A DNA stretch of 25,032 nucleotides, taken from an uncultured archaeon (GTDB lineage Archaea; Asgardarchaeota; Thorarchaeia; Thorarchaeales; Thorarchaeaceae). A program made the position numbers and the translations under genes. Below, piece after piece: positions 78 through 13,557 of the stretch; position 1 is the first letter of the stretch; the number at the start of each line of letters is the position of its first letter. The notes under the pieces are model-generated. The model was not told the DNA's origin and ran no database searches. It was given only the letters and a program-made list of their open reading frames with translations. The stretch spans positions 1 to 25,032 of the forward strand of contig CAYWJO010000049.1 in NCBI GenBank assembly GCA_964458565.1. The letters run 5' to 3'.

Positions 78-230
78 GTACCTGCCTATTTACTCGTTTA
101 TATATAAATATGCGGTCTTTTATTGTATTTATATGCATTTTTTAGTTTAATAGAATGCCTTTAAATATGCTTTATGACCGTTTTCAGAAAATTATCTTCA
201 TAAGTTTATTACTATTTATGTATAGAAATG

Positions 231-296
231 AGTGGGGATTATCACCTATCCTCCTGAATAAAGGATGAGTGAACCCCTCTGACCCAACAGGTCGGA
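231..296 (+). repeat. Structured left end / 5' leader of the TnpB element: two hairpins
   Basis: Imperfect stem GGGG..TCAC..ATCCT (from 234) / AGGAT..GTGA..CCCC (to 277), then TCTGACC-CAACA-GGTCGGA (278-296). This GC-richer island sits in AT-rich DNA. Confidence 0.55.
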
Positions 297-321: not shown

Positions 322-2115
322 ATGGGAACTTCAAAGGGTACGGTCATCAGTGTAAAAGTCCCGATAAAGTGGGATGCTATGACCGAGAGGCAGAAGACTC
401 GACTCTCTCGAATAACAAGTAGAGATACACGGGTGATTCAAGCCTTCCTTGGAGTGATTGCATATCACGAGAAAGAACTTCTTGTCGGAAAGAGAAACAA
501 GAAAGTCAACGGTGCGAAGCTGGAGAAGATAACACTCACAGCTGAGAGGTCTAGAGATGAGTCCAAACATAGGACTATTGTCCCTCATGACTTCAAAGAG
601 AGATTCCCGAATATATCATTGAATGAACTACAGGAATGCAGACAGGTCGCTGTTGCCATGTGGAACAGCTATCTTGCTCTGGAGGGCGAACATCCTATGA
701 AGAGCAAGGGATACAGACCCCGTAAACTTCCTAGATATGTATTCAATCGCAGGTTCAAGGTCATCTATACTCCTGAGAAAGAGATCAACCACTGGCTCAG
801 GCTCATGGATTCCCTCGACTCTGCAAAGACACCTGGGCACTACCACGACTACCTTATGATTCCTCTCAGTCCTTCCTCTTATCATCTGAATAAGATGAAT
901 GAAGGAAAGGTTACATCACTTCGCCTTCTCAAGGACAGAAAACGGAAGTGGTGGGCGGTCTTCTCTGTACGCGTCAATGTCCCCGATATCTCAAACGGTT
1001 CGAAGTCACCTGCTATCCTAGGGATAGACCTTGGAATAGACAAGGCTGTCTGTTCAGTGGTATTGACTAGGAGTAAGGTACGACATGCGAGATATTTCAC
1101 GCAGCATGATAAGGTGAAGCGAATCGAGAAATTAGATAGACGGGTAGACGCTCTACAACATGAGATGGACACACGATTGAACAATGGTATTCCAGCTGAT
1201 GATATTGTCCTAAAATTGAGAGCACTCAGCGGGAAACGGAAGAATGTCAGTATCGATGATGACAGAGTCTTAGTGAAACAACTCACTGAGCATATTCTTG
1301 AGTTATCAAAGAAATATGACCTCTACGTTGCTATAGGGAAACTTACGGGTATTCGTGACAGTGCCAATCGAGGTAGTGGGAAGAAAAAGTCCTTCCGCTC
1401 AAAAGTTGCCCGGTGGACCTTTGCACGATTCACAAACTGGCTCAGGCACTCCCTTGCTCAGCAGGGCTGGAAAGTCTCCGGTTACGGCTCGCGATTCTTC
1501 ACAATTCGTGAATATTGGACAAGTCGTACCTGCCACAAGTGTGGGCACATCGGAATCAGGCCAAAGCAGTCGTTGTTCATCTGTCACACGTGCGGATATC
1601 GTACCAATGCCGACAAGAACGGCGCTATCAACATAGCAAGGCGCCTTATCAGGTTCATACCCTCTCTGAGGGATGAAGACAATGGACTAGGGCAGTGGCT
1701 CTTGCCTCATGAGAGGTCGGGGTCAACCCTGAAGGCCTCAAGGAGCTCGCGCTCTAAGAGGAAGTCCAGACCCTCTTCGAAGTTGTCAGCTTCAGGAAGG
1801 GGGTCCGTGGCTGAGTGCCATACTCAGGCTTCTTTGACCGAGTTTGAGGGTACTACCGATCCAGCCATGGAAAGTGCCGCGGAAATACCGTCTGCCGCCG
1901 TTGACGCCCGAAAGGCAACTGACAGTCATGGCAGTACAGTGCAGCGGAGTGAAGCTCAGTGCCAAGAGAGAAGTGTTGCTTCGGTGACCTTGGACAAAGC
2001 CCGTGTACACGGGTCGGGAGCGGTCTCGACTCTTGCTGGTGACAGCAGTCGCGAGAAGGGTAGAACGCGGAAGTCAGAGGTCATAGAAGGGGTTCACTCA
2101 CCTTCTAAAGACTAA
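322..2115 (+). CDS. tnpB: TnpB/Cas12f-like RNA-guided endonuclease, RuvC-II-rearranged type, with long disordered C-terminal tail
   Basis: Numbering from the 313 ORF: RuvC-I ILGIDLG (D239), YVAIGKL (G342 at the usual Glu position), REYWTS (E400), zinc finger CHKC...CHTC, RuvC-III NADKNGAINI (D434). ATG 322 is preferred because AGGTGA lies at 311-316. Confidence 0.9.
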   Translation: MGTSKGTVISVKVPIKWDAMTERQKTRLSRITSRDTRVIQAFLGVIAYHEKELLVGKRNKKVNGAKLEKITLTAERSRDESKHRTIVPHDFKERFPNISLNELQECRQVAVAMWNSYLALEGEHPMKSKGYRPRKLPRYVFNRRFKVIYTPEKEINHWLRLMDSLDSAKTPGHYHDYLMIPLSPSSYHLNKMNEGKVTSLRLLKDRKRKWWAVFSVRVNVPDISNGSKSPAILGIDLGIDKAVCSVVLTRSKVRHARYFTQHDKVKRIEKLDRRVDALQHEMDTRLNNGIPADDIVLKLRALSGKRKNVSIDDDRVLVKQLTEHILELSKKYDLYVAIGKLTGIRDSANRGSGKKKSFRSKVARWTFARFTNWLRHSLAQQGWKVSGYGSRFFTIREYWTSRTCHKCGHIGIRPKQSLFICHTCGYRTNADKNGAINIARRLIRFIPSLRDEDNGLGQWLLPHERSGSTLKASRSSRSKRKSRPSSKLSASGRGSVAECHTQASLTEFEGTTDPAMESAAEIPSAAVDARKATDSHGSTVQRSEAQCQERSVASVTLDKARVHGSGAVSTLAGDSSREKGRTRKSEVIEGVHSPSKD

Positions 2116-2140
2116 GACAGGTCGGTGCATGCAGCCGAGA
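1690..2140 (+). ncRNA. Putative omegaRNA/sotRNA overlapping the tnpB 3' end
   Basis: Dense stems: GACCCTCTTC/GAAGGGGGTC, CTGAGT/ACTCAG, GCC-CGAAA-GGC, C(TTCG)G tetraloop, the palindrome CCCGTGTACACGGG, GTCGGGA/TCTCGAC and TAGAAGG/CCTTCTA. The encoded protein here is low-complexity. TnpB omegaRNAs are known to overlap the ORF 3' end. Confidence 0.7.
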
Positions 2141-2266
2141 ACATTAATGAGTAAGCCTCATCTTTGTATTGCAGATTCAAAAATATAGCTCATACAACCT
2201 GAAAATTAATCTATTATCCATAATATATATGACCAATCTTAGTAATTAGATTACAGGTGGTAGACG

Positions 2267-2810: not shown

Positions 2811-3221
2811 ATGCCCCCTAAGGATATGAACATCATCGTGTTGGGATGCATGCAATGTATGTATGCAGCAGCAGACCTTGCAGGAACGATGAAGCTGCAG
2901 TACGATGTGAGTGCGAGGATAATCCGAATGCCGTGTACCGCACGATTGGATCTCAACTTCATCCTGAAAGCACTGCAAGAGGGGGCAGATGGAGTACTGA
3001 TCGTTGGATGTCATCCTGGGGACTGCGCATACAAGACCGGAAACTTGGGGGCAGAACGACGTGTCAGATTTGCGAGGAAGTTGATTGCAAGCCTTGGAAT
3101 CGACGAGCGTCGCGTGAAAATGGTGTTTGTTTCAGCAGCGGAGGGCGATAAGTTTGCAGAAGAAGTCAACACCTTTGCTGACGAGATACGCGCAATAGGG
3201 CCAAATCCAATCAGATTATGA
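2811..3221 (+). CDS. mvhD: Hydrogenase/heterodisulfide reductase [2Fe-2S] subunit MvhD/FlpD (all-Cys form)
   Basis: CxxCxYAAADLAG, IIRMPCTAR, GADGVLIVGCHPGDC and SAAEG..F...GPNP motifs; GGAGG SD upstream. Confidence 0.95.
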   Translation: MPPKDMNIIVLGCMQCMYAAADLAGTMKLQYDVSARIIRMPCTARLDLNFILKALQEGADGVLIVGCHPGDCAYKTGNLGAERRVRFARKLIASLGIDERRVKMVFVSAAEGDKFAEEVNTFADEIRAIGPNPIRL

Positions 3222-3648: not shown

Positions 3649-5007
3649 TTGAACAACATGAACAAAACTATATCTCGAACTCCAAGGAAAACTCTATTGA
3701 TATTGCTCGTTGTTTCTATACTACAATCTACTTGTATATCGAATACGAGTATATCTTATCCAACACCTACTACACAAGTTCATGTGCACTTAAGCTATGC
3801 AACCACTCGAATAGATGCAATTACAGACTATATTTTATCTTTGTATTTGGATGAGGGCATGTTTTATGGATGGCTAAGGGACACACCACCAGACCTCAGA
3901 ATTGGATCCACTCCTAATATCTTCGATGTCTATGATGCATATCGAGTTCTTAATATGCTTGATAGAACAGATGTGCTTGATTGGACCAATTGTACCGAGT
4001 TTCTACGAAGTCTTGTGAACACCGACCCAGTCTCACCATCATATTATGGCTTGGTCAATCTTTCTATTACATCCTCGCCCAGTGTTATCTCATGTGATGT
4101 TGCAATTGAGTTGTTCCCAGAACTCGGTCTGGAGAGCTTGATTTTTGAACAAGAGATAGCTGAATATATAGTTCAGGCACAGACACCAAACGGTGGTTTT
4201 AGGTTGCGGCCGGATAATTCAGACCCGCCTGACATGATTACAACTTGGTCCGCACTGAGAGCAATGCACACACTCAATCATCTATCAGATATTGACACCT
4301 CAAAGGCAGTTGACTTCGTTATGTCTTGCTACACTGCGAACGGTGGCTTCTCGAATGTTCCTTATTATGACTCCAATCCGGATGTAGTTCCATTGGGCCT
4401 CTTTTGTTTAGAGCTTCTCAATAGGTTCGATCTCGTGAGAGTGACGAATACGACCAACTATCTCTTACAGTACTGGGACAACAATACTGGTCATGTTGTT
4501 GATGGCACATTGGTAAATACAGAACGGTTCGTTTGGTCACTTAAGACACTGGGTACACTCAGTCAAATCAATATTAACAAAACATTGGAATGGGTTTTGG
4601 CGTGTCAGAATACACGCAATGGTTTGTTTCTTCCAATACCAAATTATGACTATGATAGTGAACGACTTGAATGGTGTAGAGCTGCTGTACATATACTTGA
4701 TCTTTGCGACAGATTGGATCTGCTAGAAGAACCTATCACTCTGATTGAACATCCAGTATATACTACTCCCCAATGGTATATCGATTATATCAACGAGCAT
4801 TTTGGAACTCAAACCAACACAGGAAATGGTGTCCATCCAATATGGCCCAACATCGACATAGCTGCTTTCTTAGTCAATAGTCTTCCTCTTATGGGTATTG
4901 CATTCATTATATCTCTTCCAGCTGTCTATATAACATGGTCTAAACGAAAGAAACGAGATGAACGCAGAGAACAGCATGAAAGACGAAAAAAGATGAGGGG
5001 AAAGTAA
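3649..5007 (+). CDS. Prenyltransferase/squalene-cyclase-repeat protein, membrane anchored
   Basis: Repeats AQTPNGGF, CYTANGGFS and CQNTRNGLF with intervening helices. Hydrophobic N-terminal signal, and a C-terminal TM helix followed by a K/R-rich tail. Start could be ATG 3658. Confidence 0.8.
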   Translation: MNNMNKTISRTPRKTLLILLVVSILQSTCISNTSISYPTPTTQVHVHLSYATTRIDAITDYILSLYLDEGMFYGWLRDTPPDLRIGSTPNIFDVYDAYRVLNMLDRTDVLDWTNCTEFLRSLVNTDPVSPSYYGLVNLSITSSPSVISCDVAIELFPELGLESLIFEQEIAEYIVQAQTPNGGFRLRPDNSDPPDMITTWSALRAMHTLNHLSDIDTSKAVDFVMSCYTANGGFSNVPYYDSNPDVVPLGLFCLELLNRFDLVRVTNTTNYLLQYWDNNTGHVVDGTLVNTERFVWSLKTLGTLSQININKTLEWVLACQNTRNGLFLPIPNYDYDSERLEWCRAAVHILDLCDRLDLLEEPITLIEHPVYTTPQWYIDYINEHFGTQTNTGNGVHPIWPNIDIAAFLVNSLPLMGIAFIISLPAVYITWSKRKKRDERREQHERRKKMRGK

Positions 5008-13495: not shown

Positions 13496-13557
13496 GCTTT
13501 GTTTGTGGTTCAGCCCTGAAGGCCACATCCCTGCGGACGTATCCGCCAATACAAAGG
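13496..13557 (-). ncRNA. eL15 ribosomal-protein leader (cis-regulatory RNA)
   Basis: The minus strand folds as a multi-stem junction: outer stem CTTTGT.TT.GG/CC.A.AACAAAG, hairpin GCGGA-TACG-TCCGC, and GGGATGTGGCC-TTCA-GGGCTGAACC. This resembles, from memory, the described archaeal eL15 leader and lies directly 5' of rpl15e. Confidence 0.65.

What the first reader, a model, noticed from the sequence alone, without database searches (positions are those of the whole stretch)
1690..2140. Oversized (~450 nt) structured RNA hidden under a translated disordered tail
Seen: after RuvC-III the frame stays open for about 150 S/R/A/G-rich residues, while the DNA forms at least eight stems, including a 10-bp stem (1770-1805), a C(UUCG)G tetraloop and a perfect 14-bp palindrome. 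Established: typical TnpB omegaRNAs overlap the ORF end but are shorter. Inference: this is a new large omegaRNA class that may carry extra domains. The guide would lie just beyond the right end, somewhere after about 2110.
Basis: partly seen in the sequence, partly recalled or inferred. Interest (0 to 1): 0.7.

Follow-up and report, generated by a model that had tools for sequence, protein, structure and literature searches.

The report
Long guide-RNA scaffold inside TnpB tail
The last ~440 bases of this Asgard-archaeal TnpB nuclease gene are conserved as a folded RNA, almost certainly the nuclease's own guide-RNA scaffold, and not as protein; this is a well-supported but expected kind of element.

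Summary
After the nuclease core, ORF 322-2115 runs on for about 130 residues that AlphaFold leaves unfolded, and the DNA beneath them is a conserved structured RNA.

- **No coding signature:** in 40+ homologues the tail has no codon periodicity (third-position identity 0.60-0.71, against 0.42-0.47 in the core).
- **Covariation:** 12 helices (60 pairs) are 96.8% paired, against 39-47% in slid controls. 41 pairs show compensatory changes.
- **Frame independence:** a 1-nt indel puts the two subfamilies in different frames over the last third. One subfamily stops about 130 nt before the conserved RNA ends.
- **3' boundary:** the scaffold ends in a subterminal hairpin with a GUUCACUCA loop. Conservation stops at 2123, so the guide starts at 2124.
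- **Expression:** salt-marsh metatranscriptome contigs cover only 1695-2000, not the gene core.

It is therefore a TnpB omegaRNA of about 440-470 nt. "New large class" is overstated, because processed omegaRNAs of 79-466 nt are published and the GTTCACTCA motif was already noted in Asgard TnpB loci. The UUCG "tetraloop" is not a loop, and the 14-bp palindrome is lineage-specific.

One unusual feature is that the frame is kept free of stop codons by selection (0 observed, about 31 expected) without amino-acid constraint. First readers of this scan noted similar dual-coding scaffolds in two other genomes.

The parts
322..2115 (+). tnpB ORF (597 aa from the ATG at 322). The folded core ends at about residue 465 (nt ~1716). 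Residues 467-597 are the translated tail.
   Evidence: ORF list. Pfam Cas12f1-like_TNB, E = 1.5e-13, above cut-off. AlphaFold2 pLDDT below 50 for residues 467-597.
1655..1680 (+). P0 hairpin (UUCAU...AUGAA enclosing CCCUC/GAGGG). This is where nucleotide-level constraint begins, still inside the last helix of the protein core.
   Evidence: Third-codon-position identity rises from about 0.45 to 0.68-0.83 from ~1650. The stem changes from CUCAU/AUGAG to CUCAC/GUGAG to UUCAU/AUGAA between subfamilies, read by eye on the alignment.
1683..1870 (+). 5' domain of the scaffold.
- P1: 1683-1688:1763-1768, enclosing a variable hairpin (~1697-1729), 1736-1737:1760-1761 and 1743-1745:1752-1754.
- P4: 1771-1776:1798-1803.
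- P5: 1805-1811:1864-1870, with inner helix 1815-1819:1849-1853.
   Evidence: RNAalifold gives the same helices for subfamily A (15 sequences) and subfamily B (26 sequences) folded separately.
1877..2070 (+). 3' domain, closed by the long-range helix 1877-1881:2066-2070. It encloses 1888-1895:1941-1947, 1954-1956:2059-2061, hairpin 1970-1974:1978-1982, and 2000-2007:2048-2055 with a hypervariable tip.
   Evidence: The long-range helix is 100% paired in 41 sequences, with 4 of 5 pairs compensatory (CUGUG/CACAG, CCGCG/CGCGG, CCAUG/CAUGG). Helix 2000-2007:2048-2055 has 7 of 8 pairs compensatory.
2073..2118 (+). Terminal (right-end subterminal) hairpin: core stem 2084-2090:2101-2107, loop 2091-2100 GGUUCACUCA, outer pairs 2079-2082:2110-2113 and 2073-2075:2116-2118. 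The ORF stop codon TAA (2113-2115) lies in its 3' side.
   Evidence: Single-sequence folds of the last ~55-70 nt of all 41 homologues mostly give a hairpin with a variable stem and the UUCACUC motif mostly unpaired, ending roughly 8-12 nt before the boundary in most. The same motif was reported for Asgard tnpB loci in PMC10691335.
2119..2123 (+). Last bases of the scaffold and element (AGGUC), the end of the conserved ...ACAGGUC / ...UAGGUU motif.
   Evidence: Conservation across homologues stops after this motif. In L050 and L058 the next bases are the end of a tRNA gene.
2124..2143 (+). Predicted guide: flanking DNA transcribed 3' of the scaffold. The length of about 16-20 nt is assumed from other TnpBs.
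   Evidence: The sequence here differs in every locus. The exception is L010, which shares GTGCATGCAGCCGA and sits next to the same gene, mvhD. Function as a guide is inferred, not shown.
261..284 (+). 5'-UTR segment complementary to the terminal hairpin region (to 2073-2080 and 2088-2104). A possible anti-scaffold or switch partner; this belongs to another finding of the scan.
   Evidence: Read directly from the sequence. The complement changes in step with the 3' motif in L013, L011, L010 and L012. A locus's own 5'/3' pair ranks 1st or 2nd of 20 by duplex energy in the divergent lineages.

Best explanation
Window ~1655/1683-2123 (+ strand) encodes the scaffold of the omegaRNA (guide RNA) of the TnpB nuclease encoded at 322-2115. 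This is a Thorarchaeota-family lineage of TnpB-only IS200/IS605-like elements.

Proposed mechanism (inferred from published TnpB systems):
1. The RNA is transcribed as the 3' part of the tnpB mRNA.
2. It is released as a stable fragment whose 5' end lies near 1683-1696.
3. It folds into two multi-helix domains. The second is closed by a ~190-nt long-range helix.
4. It ends in the right-end subterminal hairpin, whose loop is GGUUCACUCA.
5. It continues into flanking DNA from 2124, which serves as the guide that directs TnpB to the matching empty site.

What is shown: nucleotide-level rather than protein-level conservation, covarying helices, strand specificity, a sharp scaffold/guide boundary, and RNA-library contigs restricted to the scaffold.

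What is inferred: binding to TnpB, 5' processing, and guided cleavage.

The scaffold is also translated. The TnpB frame is kept free of stop codons, and all indels are multiples of three, for roughly the first 320 nt of the scaffold, although the amino-acid sequence itself is not under coding-type constraint. Ribosome passage, or the mere presence of an unfolded basic tail, therefore seems to matter. Why it matters is unknown.
For: 1. **Codon-position test.** Core identity at positions 1/2/3 is 0.67/0.74/0.42 (subfamily A) and 0.75/0.82/0.47 (B). In the tail it is 0.63/0.65/0.60 and 0.74/0.74/0.71. The switch occurs at ~1650-1700.
2. **Covariation on alignment A2 (41 sequences).** Of 60 pairs in 12 helices, 96.8% of cells are paired, against 38.7-47.1% when partners are slid. 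41 pairs have changes on both sides (12-20 in slid controls), in 294 cells (21-59 in controls). None of 500 shuffles reaches the observed values.
3. **Independent folds agree.** The two subfamilies folded separately give the same architecture.
4. **Frame independence.** A 1-nt indel at A2 column 327 puts subfamilies A and B in different frames downstream. B stops at a conserved UGA (column 349), while the conserved RNA continues about 130 nt. The part translated only in A is as conserved as the rest: A-B identity 0.64, and B-B 0.77 although untranslated in B.
5. **Strand specificity.** Many conserved G-U pairs occur (for example 39 of 41 sequences at one pair). The alifold energy is -55.7 forward against -31.0 for the reverse complement.
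6. **3' anatomy matches published omegaRNAs.** A subterminal hairpin lies close to the boundary, followed by locus-specific sequence (PMC10278001).
7. **Expression.** In four salt-marsh metatranscriptome runs, exact contigs cover 1696-2000 (305 nt, depth 19), 1695-1966, 1735-1966 and 1731-1955. None covers the core 322-1690. A relative's 306-nt contig spans its 3' domain through the GUUCACUCA hairpin.
8. **The scaffold outlives the gene.** Internally deleted tnpB copies (C11, C55) keep a whole scaffold, and gene-less fragments exist on C32, C52, C5 and C11.
9. **Distribution.** The scaffold is detectable by DNA search at 63-78% identity in 33 of 76 genomes of the same family.
10. **Protein identity.** The protein has the TnpB/Cas12f TNB domain.
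Against: - There is no direct evidence that this RNA binds TnpB or guides cleavage.
- The RNA evidence comes from assembled contigs, not reads. They show presence, not ends, and none of the exact contigs reaches the last ~120 nt or the guide of this particular copy.
- The contigs start at 1695/1696, which would leave out the 5' strand of helix P1 (1683-1688). That may be thin coverage at a transcript end, or it may mean P1 is not part of the mature RNA.
- The frame is under selection to stay open: 0 in-frame stops against 31.2 +/- 3.8 expected from column shuffles, minimum 21 in 200. A role for the translated tail therefore cannot be dismissed.
- The covariation controls do not fully remove phylogenetic relatedness, and the structure was derived from the same alignment it was counted on.
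- No Rfam family matches, so there is no independent model to score against.
Confidence: 0.85

Rival explanations
1. The tail is primarily a functional protein segment, such as a conserved basic, disordered C-terminal extension. Under this reading the RNA structure is incidental.
For: The frame is open in all 41 homologues for 91-145 codons, while the other frames carry 1-7 and 4-18 stops. All indels up to A2 column 327 preserve the frame. Column shuffles predict about 31 in-frame stops and 0 are seen. Short motifs such as DPAME.TVE align at the amino-acid level.
Against: There is no codon periodicity. Compensatory base-pair changes occur in 41 of 60 pairs. The two subfamilies read the last third in different frames, or not at all, while the nucleotides stay conserved. 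The region has pLDDT below 50 and no predicted structure. Gene-less scaffold copies persist.
Confidence: 0.04
2. The conservation reflects DNA-level signals of the transposon right end, that is, single-stranded DNA hairpins read by a transposase, and not an RNA.
For: IS200/IS605 right ends carry a subterminal hairpin used by TnpA, and the last ~50 nt here fit that description. The 5'-UTR segment 261-284 and the right-end region form an imperfect inverted repeat that co-varies, as transposon ends do.
Against: Known right ends are tens of bases long, not ~440. The covarying helices span 1683-2070, far from the end. RNA-library contigs cover exactly this region and not the gene core. No Y1 TnpA is found in this 93%-complete genome. 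Cas1 is not linked to these loci. G-T pairs are tolerated in DNA, so the wobble pairs alone do not exclude this reading.
Confidence: 0.05
3. It is a structured RNA of another kind, for example a ribozyme, an intron, an RNase P-like RNA, or a 3' regulatory element of the tnpB mRNA. In that case it would not be a guide RNA.
For: It is large and multi-domain. An earlier first-reader note (e1-5543946) saw RNase P-like motifs. The 5' UTR can pair with its 3' hairpin, which would suit an mRNA switch.
Against: No Rfam family reaches its threshold. The only weak hit in the region is group-II-D1D4-1 at 18.4 bits against a 35-bit cut-off, E = 2.3, and there is no RNase P hit. Its position, its end exactly at the element boundary, and the locus-specific sequence that follows are the defining layout of omegaRNAs.
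Confidence: 0.05

Closest known systems
TnpB omegaRNA / reRNA of IS200/IS605 elements (ISDra2, AmaTnpB and the 59-orthologue survey of Nety et al. 2023, PMC10278001)
   Same: It is encoded on the tnpB strand, overlaps the 3' end of the CDS, ends at the transposon right end, has a subterminal hairpin close to the guide, and takes its guide from flanking DNA. Reported processed sizes are 79-466 nt, and this one is about 440-470 nt.
   Different: Here the overlap with the CDS is almost total in subfamily A (the stop lies 8 nt before the scaffold end) and about 70% in subfamily B. The frame is kept open by selection. The sequence family is not in Rfam. No TnpA partner is found in the genome.
Asgard aCas1-associated TnpB groups (Cas1H-Asgard-1/-2) of Altae-Tran et al. 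2023, PMC10691335
   Same: Both are Asgard-archaeal TnpBs with a conserved GTTCACTCA motif downstream of or at the end of tnpB (window 2092-2100). That paper left the nature of the conserved regions open.
   Different: That paper describes a hypervariable stretch upstream of the motif and a link to aCas1. Here the motif is the loop of the terminal hairpin and the variable guide lies about 23 nt downstream of it. No Cas1 is found next to these copies: one Cas1 elsewhere in G000, and none in the genomes holding L010 and L014.
Haloarchaeal sense-overlapping transcripts (sotRNAs) of IS1341-type tnpB genes and archaeal omegaRNAs (PMC12558985; the sotRNAs are recalled from the reporter's own knowledge)
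   Same: These are archaeal, TnpB-only elements with a stable RNA that overlaps the 3' end of the gene on the sense strand.
   Different: They belong to a different phylum and sequence family, and as far as recalled they are shorter. Circular isoforms were not examined here.
mRNA cis-regulation of AmaTnpB (Nety et al. 2023, PMC10278001)
   Same: A segment of the tnpB mRNA is predicted to pair with the omegaRNA scaffold. Here the 5' UTR 261-284 pairs with the terminal hairpin region.
   Different: There the inhibitory segment lies inside the CDS near RuvC-II, whereas here it is in the 5' UTR and co-varies with the 3' motif. No functional test was made here.

Membership tests
TnpB omegaRNA (OMEGA guide RNA) | Encoded on the tnpB strand, overlapping the 3' end of the CDS and running to the element's right end | tested here: met
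   Nucleotide-level constraint runs from ~1655 to 2123 on the + strand, and the ORF ends at 2115.
TnpB omegaRNA (OMEGA guide RNA) | Sharp drop of conservation at the scaffold/guide boundary, followed by locus-specific sequence | tested here: met
   Alignments of 16 (A) and 30 (B) tail regions lose all conservation after ...AGGU(C/U), which is window 2123.
TnpB omegaRNA (OMEGA guide RNA) | Subterminal 3' hairpin within about 10 nt of the guide (PMC10278001) | tested here: met
   In the window the core stem is 2084-2090:2101-2107 and the outer pairs reach 2118, 5 nt from the boundary. Single-sequence folds give a comparable hairpin in most of the 41 homologues.
TnpB omegaRNA (OMEGA guide RNA) | Conserved secondary structure supported by compensatory changes | tested here: met
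   Of 60 pairs, 96.8% are paired, and 41 show changes on both sides against 12-20 in slid controls. Both subfamilies fold alike.
TnpB omegaRNA (OMEGA guide RNA) | Accumulates as a discrete RNA distinct from the full mRNA | tested here: inconclusive
   Contigs from four metatranscriptome runs cover 1695-2000 only and not the core. These are contigs, so true ends, strand and abundance are not shown, and the last ~120 nt of this copy are uncovered.
TnpB omegaRNA (OMEGA guide RNA) | Binds TnpB and directs TAM-dependent DNA cleavage | not testable with these tools
   This needs biochemistry or a cell-based assay.
TnpB (RuvC nuclease of IS200/IS605/IS607 elements) | RuvC fold with zinc-finger/TNB domain | tested here: met
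   Pfam Cas12f1-like_TNB scores 51.1 bits against a 26.3-bit cut-off. OrfB_IS605 scores only 14.2 bits, below its cut-off. The GIDLG, CxxC...CxxC and NADxN motifs are invariant. The catalytic triad was not examined in detail here.
Autonomous IS200/IS605 element | Y1 HUH transposase TnpA in the element or genome | tested here: not met
   There is no PF01797 match in the 93%-complete genome. The element is TnpB-only (IS1341-like), and what mobilises it is unknown.
aCas1-associated Asgard TnpB (PMC10691335) | Neighbouring Asgard Cas1 gene | tested here: not met
   One Cas1 lies on contig C66, not beside any tnpB copy. None is found in the genomes holding L010 and L014.
aCas1-associated Asgard TnpB (PMC10691335) | Conserved GTTCACTCA motif at the 3' side of tnpB | tested here: met
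   The motif lies at window 2092-2100 and is nearly invariant in 41 homologues.
Any Rfam 15 family (RNase P, group I/II introns, IS605-orfB RNAs and others) | Score at or above the family's gathering threshold | tested here: not met
   There is no hit in the tail at gathering thresholds. With E up to 10 the only hit in the tail is group-II-D1D4-1 at 18.4 bits against a 35-bit cut-off.

The most novel reading that the evidence does not exclude
The scaffold may be a true dual-use sequence with a built-in switch. Under this reading, ribosomes must read through roughly the first 320 nt of the guide-RNA scaffold; the frame is kept open by selection although the peptide is not conserved as protein. 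One possible reason is to protect or complete transcription up to the guide. In addition, a co-varying ~25-nt segment of the 5' UTR would pair with the terminal GUUCACUCA hairpin and decide whether a transcript serves as mRNA or matures into guide RNA. That would be a translation-coupled control of guide-RNA biogenesis not described for TnpB.
Probability: 0.25. Interest if true: 0.6.

Novelty: new member of a known kind. Interest (0 to 1): 0.4.

Why it matters
This gives a covariation-supported secondary structure and exact boundaries for the guide RNA of a TnpB lineage spread through one Asgard (Thorarchaeota) family. The scaffold was found in 33 of 76 genomes searched in that family. A 2023 survey had flagged the conserved GTTCACTCA motif of Asgard tnpB loci but left its nature unexplained.

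It is also a clear case where a long "disordered C-terminal tail" in protein annotation is really an RNA gene. That is useful for annotation pipelines and for anyone wanting to test this nuclease. The selection that keeps the frame open, without protein-type constraint, offers a small and testable puzzle about coupling between translation and guide-RNA production in archaea. It does not change the established picture of how TnpB systems work.

Tried and rejected
- **Rfam searches** at gathering thresholds and at E up to 10 found nothing relevant in the tail. The RNase P-like reading of an earlier first-reader note is therefore not supported.
- **RNAalifold on the first MAFFT alignment** recovered only part of the structure. 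An all-against-all column scan and folding the two subfamilies separately were needed.
- **One script call returned no answer** and was repeated.
- **Makarova 2020 (PMC7307682)** could not be read, because the paper is not held. No supplement of PMC10691335 is held either. Membership in the Cas1H-Asgard groups could therefore not be checked by sequence.
- **No covariance model was built.** An nhmmer profile was used instead for the genome search.
- **A first attempt to count pairs for hairpin P0** used the wrong columns. The helix is supported only by reading the alignment, not by a formal count.
- **Metatranscriptome coverage:** no contig covers 100-351 (the 5' UTR), the core 322-1690, or 2116-2600 in the four RNA runs. 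Holes in contig coverage prove nothing.
- **Extra open frame in subfamily A:** for columns 328-428, 0 stops were seen against 5.0 +/- 1.7 expected, and some shuffles also reach 0. This is not significant on its own.
Full report
**What is there**

The window carries one long ORF, 322-2115 on the + strand. Its product has the TnpB/Cas12f TNB zinc-ribbon domain (Pfam PF07282, E = 1.5e-13) and the GIDLG, CxxC...CxxC and NADxN motifs, which are invariant among relatives. AlphaFold2, run with a shallow 9-sequence alignment, folds residues up to about 465. It leaves residues 467-597 with pLDDT of 25-34 and no secondary structure. Over the same stretch G+C rises to 0.55-0.58, against 0.44 in the core and about 0.35 in the flanks. 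The sequence 1690-2140 folds better than dinucleotide shuffles (z = -2.67).

**Relatives**

- The genome is about 93% complete with 93 contigs. Public hits indicate it is related to Thorarchaeota MAGs.
- It holds paralogues at 44-51% amino-acid identity on contigs C79, C68, C39 and C7, plus degraded copies.
- A genome-collection scan gave 6 near-full-length relatives.
- A metagenome scan gave 340 relatives, of which 79 loci were kept.
- All complete tail regions recovered (about 45 loci) are open in the TnpB frame. They fall into two types. Type A is long (120-145 codons or more) and includes the window. Type B is about 100 codons and ends ...GGIPSR*.

**RNA or protein?**

Five tests point the same way.

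1. *Codon periodicity.* In the core, identity at codon positions 1/2/3 is 0.67/0.74/0.42 (A) and 0.75/0.82/0.47 (B), the normal coding signature. In the tail it is 0.63/0.65/0.60 and 0.74/0.74/0.71, and amino-acid identity is lower than in the core. A sliding window places the switch at about 1650-1700.
2. *Extent.* In type B the ORF stops at a conserved UGA, but nucleotide conservation continues about 130 nt to the same 3' block that ends type A: GGUGACA..GGC...GGGUGGAACACAG...GUUCACUCAC...AGGU.
3. *Frame.* Up to alignment column 327, all 41 sequences share the codon phase in every column sampled (every tenth column). A 1-nt indel then shifts type A relative to type B, which is why type A reads through the UGA. 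The part translated only in type A is at least as conserved as the rest. A-B identity there is 0.64 against 0.54 elsewhere, and B-B identity is 0.77 although the region is untranslated in B.
4. *Covariation.* Types A and B folded separately give the same architecture. On the 41-sequence alignment A2, the 60 pairs in 12 helices are 96.8% paired, against 38.7-47.1% when partners are slid by 1-3 columns. 41 pairs have changes on both sides (12-20 in controls), in 294 cells (21-59 in controls). None of 500 shuffles reaches the observed values.
5. *Strand.* Conserved G-U pairs are frequent, and the consensus fold energy is -55.7 for the + strand against -31.0 for its complement.

**Anatomy in window coordinates**

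- *P0 hairpin:* about 1655-1680. This helix was read by eye and not formally counted.
- *5' domain:*
  - P1: 1683-1688:1763-1768, enclosing a variable hairpin, 1736-1737:1760-1761 and 1743-1745:1752-1754.
- P4: 1771-1776:1798-1803.
  - P5: 1805-1811:1864-1870, with inner helix 1815-1819:1849-1853.
- *3' domain:* closed by the long-range helix 1877-1881:2066-2070, seen as CUGUG/CACAG, CCGCG/CGCGG or CCAUG/CAUGG in different lineages. It encloses 1888-1895:1941-1947, 1954-1956:2059-2061, hairpin 1970-1974:1978-1982, and 2000-2007:2048-2055 with a hypervariable tip.
- *Terminal hairpin:* 2084-2090:2101-2107, with loop GGUUCACUCA.
- *Linker:* ends at ACAGGUC (2117-2123).

Conservation ends at 2123. 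The sequence from 2124 is different in every locus.

The "UUCG tetraloop" is part of the 3' strand of hairpin 1970-1982. The 14-bp palindrome 2001-2014 is confined to this sublineage. There it is supported by a compensatory change in the C5 paralogue (CCCGUGUACACGGG becomes CUCGUGUACACGAG), but it competes with the family-wide helix 2000-2007:2048-2055.

**Expression**

Five salt-marsh metatranscriptome runs hold part of the stretch. Contigs from four of them lie only on the scaffold:

| Contig span | Note |
|---|---|
| 1696-2000 | exact match, 305 nt, depth 19 |
| 1695-1966 | exact match |
| 1735-1966 | exact match |
| 1731-1955 | exact match |

No contig lies on 322-1690. A relative's 306-nt contig runs through its own 3' domain and GUUCACUCA hairpin. 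DNA carry-over would not be expected to select the scaffold alone, so this is a hint of a stable RNA. Contigs cannot give ends or strand, and the last ~120 nt of this copy are not covered.

**Independence from the gene**

A profile search of the genome finds five whole scaffolds. Two of them (C11, C55) sit behind internally deleted tnpB genes. It also finds gene-less pieces on C32 (about 310 nt), C52, C5 (split by an inserted small zinc-ribbon ORF) and C11 (about 95 nt of the 3' end). By DNA search alone, the scaffold is found in 33 of 76 genomes of the same family and in 1 of 224 genomes from other families of the phylum.

**The frame is nevertheless kept open**

- In the TnpB frame there is no stop in any of the 41 sequences over 91-145 codons. 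The other two frames carry 1-7 and 4-18 stops.
- Shuffling letters within alignment columns keeps RNA-level conservation but breaks codons. It predicts 31.2 +/- 3.8 in-frame stops for columns 12-327 (minimum 21 in 200 shuffles), while the other frames match expectation.
- Translation through roughly the first 320 nt of the scaffold is therefore selected, without selection on the residues themselves.
- For the extra stretch read only in type A, the signal is weak (0 observed against 5.0 expected).
- The reason is unknown. Possibilities include ribosome passage protecting or completing transcription up to the guide, or a need for a basic unfolded tail. These are guesses.

**Comparison with what is known**

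The layout is that of a TnpB omegaRNA: on the gene strand, overlapping the CDS end, ending at the right end, with a hairpin just before a flank-derived guide. Nety et al. 2023 measured processed omegaRNAs of 79-466 nt and found the 3' subterminal hairpin to be the one shared feature (PMC10278001). About 440-470 nt is therefore long but within the known range.

Altae-Tran et al. 2023 reported a conserved GTTCACTCA motif downstream of Asgard, aCas1-linked tnpB genes and left it open (PMC10691335). Here that motif is the loop of the terminal hairpin. No Cas1 lies beside these copies, and no Y1 TnpA is found in the genome. The elements are therefore TnpB-only, and what mobilises them is unknown. 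No Rfam family matches.

**Verdict**

The finding is real and the core interpretation is right: a structured guide-RNA scaffold under a translated, unfolded tail. The claim of a new class is not warranted. It is a new, well-defined member of a known kind. Its one unusual property is selection for an open frame without protein-type constraint. First readers of this scan independently noted similar "dual-coding scaffold" observations in two other genomes; I did not test those.

Noticed in passing
window 261-284 versus 2073-2080 and 2088-2104: The 5' UTR is an imperfect reverse complement (~25 nt in two blocks) of the terminal hairpin region of the scaffold. The complement changes in step with the 3' motif in L013 (GAGGAAAC/GUUUCCUC), L011 (an extra A/U) and L012. 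A locus's own 5'/3' pair ranks 1st or 2nd of 20 by duplex energy in the divergent lineages. It could be an mRNA/guide-RNA switch or a DNA-level inverted repeat.
   Followed up: partly
window 196-213 and 287-307: The 12-mer AAGTTTATTACT (BRE/TATA-like, preceded by CTTCAT) occurs upstream at 202-213. It occurs again at 296-307, directly after a hairpin ending ...ACAGGTCGG, which resembles the right-end terminus. In homologues both copies differ between loci but match within each locus.
   Followed up: partly
window 2124-2150; L010:~4800-4830: The flank after the right end translates as VHAAENINE*, which resembles MYAAADL... of the mvhD gene at 2811-3221. L010 shares the 14 bases GTGCATGCAGCCGA after its right end and sits directly upstream of mvhD.
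   Followed up: partly
G000 contigs C79:8-1372 and C68:11197-12561: Two paralogous tnpB copies end at contig ends exactly at the core/scaffold junction (about residue 451), and C5 and C52 end inside scaffolds. The scaffold appears to break the assembly, as a repeat would.
   Followed up: no
G000 C11:78784-79481, C55:14034-14600, C32:24562-24870, C11:44889-44982, C5:141557-142199: There are degraded derivatives. These are internally deleted tnpB genes that keep a whole scaffold, gene-less 3' scaffold pieces, and one scaffold (C5) interrupted by a ~330-nt insert encoding a small zinc-ribbon protein.
   Followed up: partly
L044:624-1206: Two tnpB elements lie in tandem. The right end of the first (type A) is followed at once by ...TCAG|AAGTTTATTAGC..., the proximal 5' part of the second (type B). 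The second lacks the usual ~100-nt upstream module.
   Followed up: no
L050:~1320-1400 and L058:~2205-2280: In these two loci the scaffold ends directly against the 3' end of a tRNA gene on the opposite strand (TGGTGCGGCC...GGATTTGAACC), so their guides would match tRNA genes.
   Followed up: no
L024:~1530-1720: A second, partial scaffold copy lies downstream of the first and is in the same open frame, giving a 220+-codon tail. The motif ACAGGTCGG recurs several times downstream in L024, L013, L051 and L011.
   Followed up: no
window 13502-13546 (- strand): Rfam eL15-Euryarchaeota ribosomal-protein leader, 47.5 bits against a 33.7-bit cut-off.
   Followed up: no
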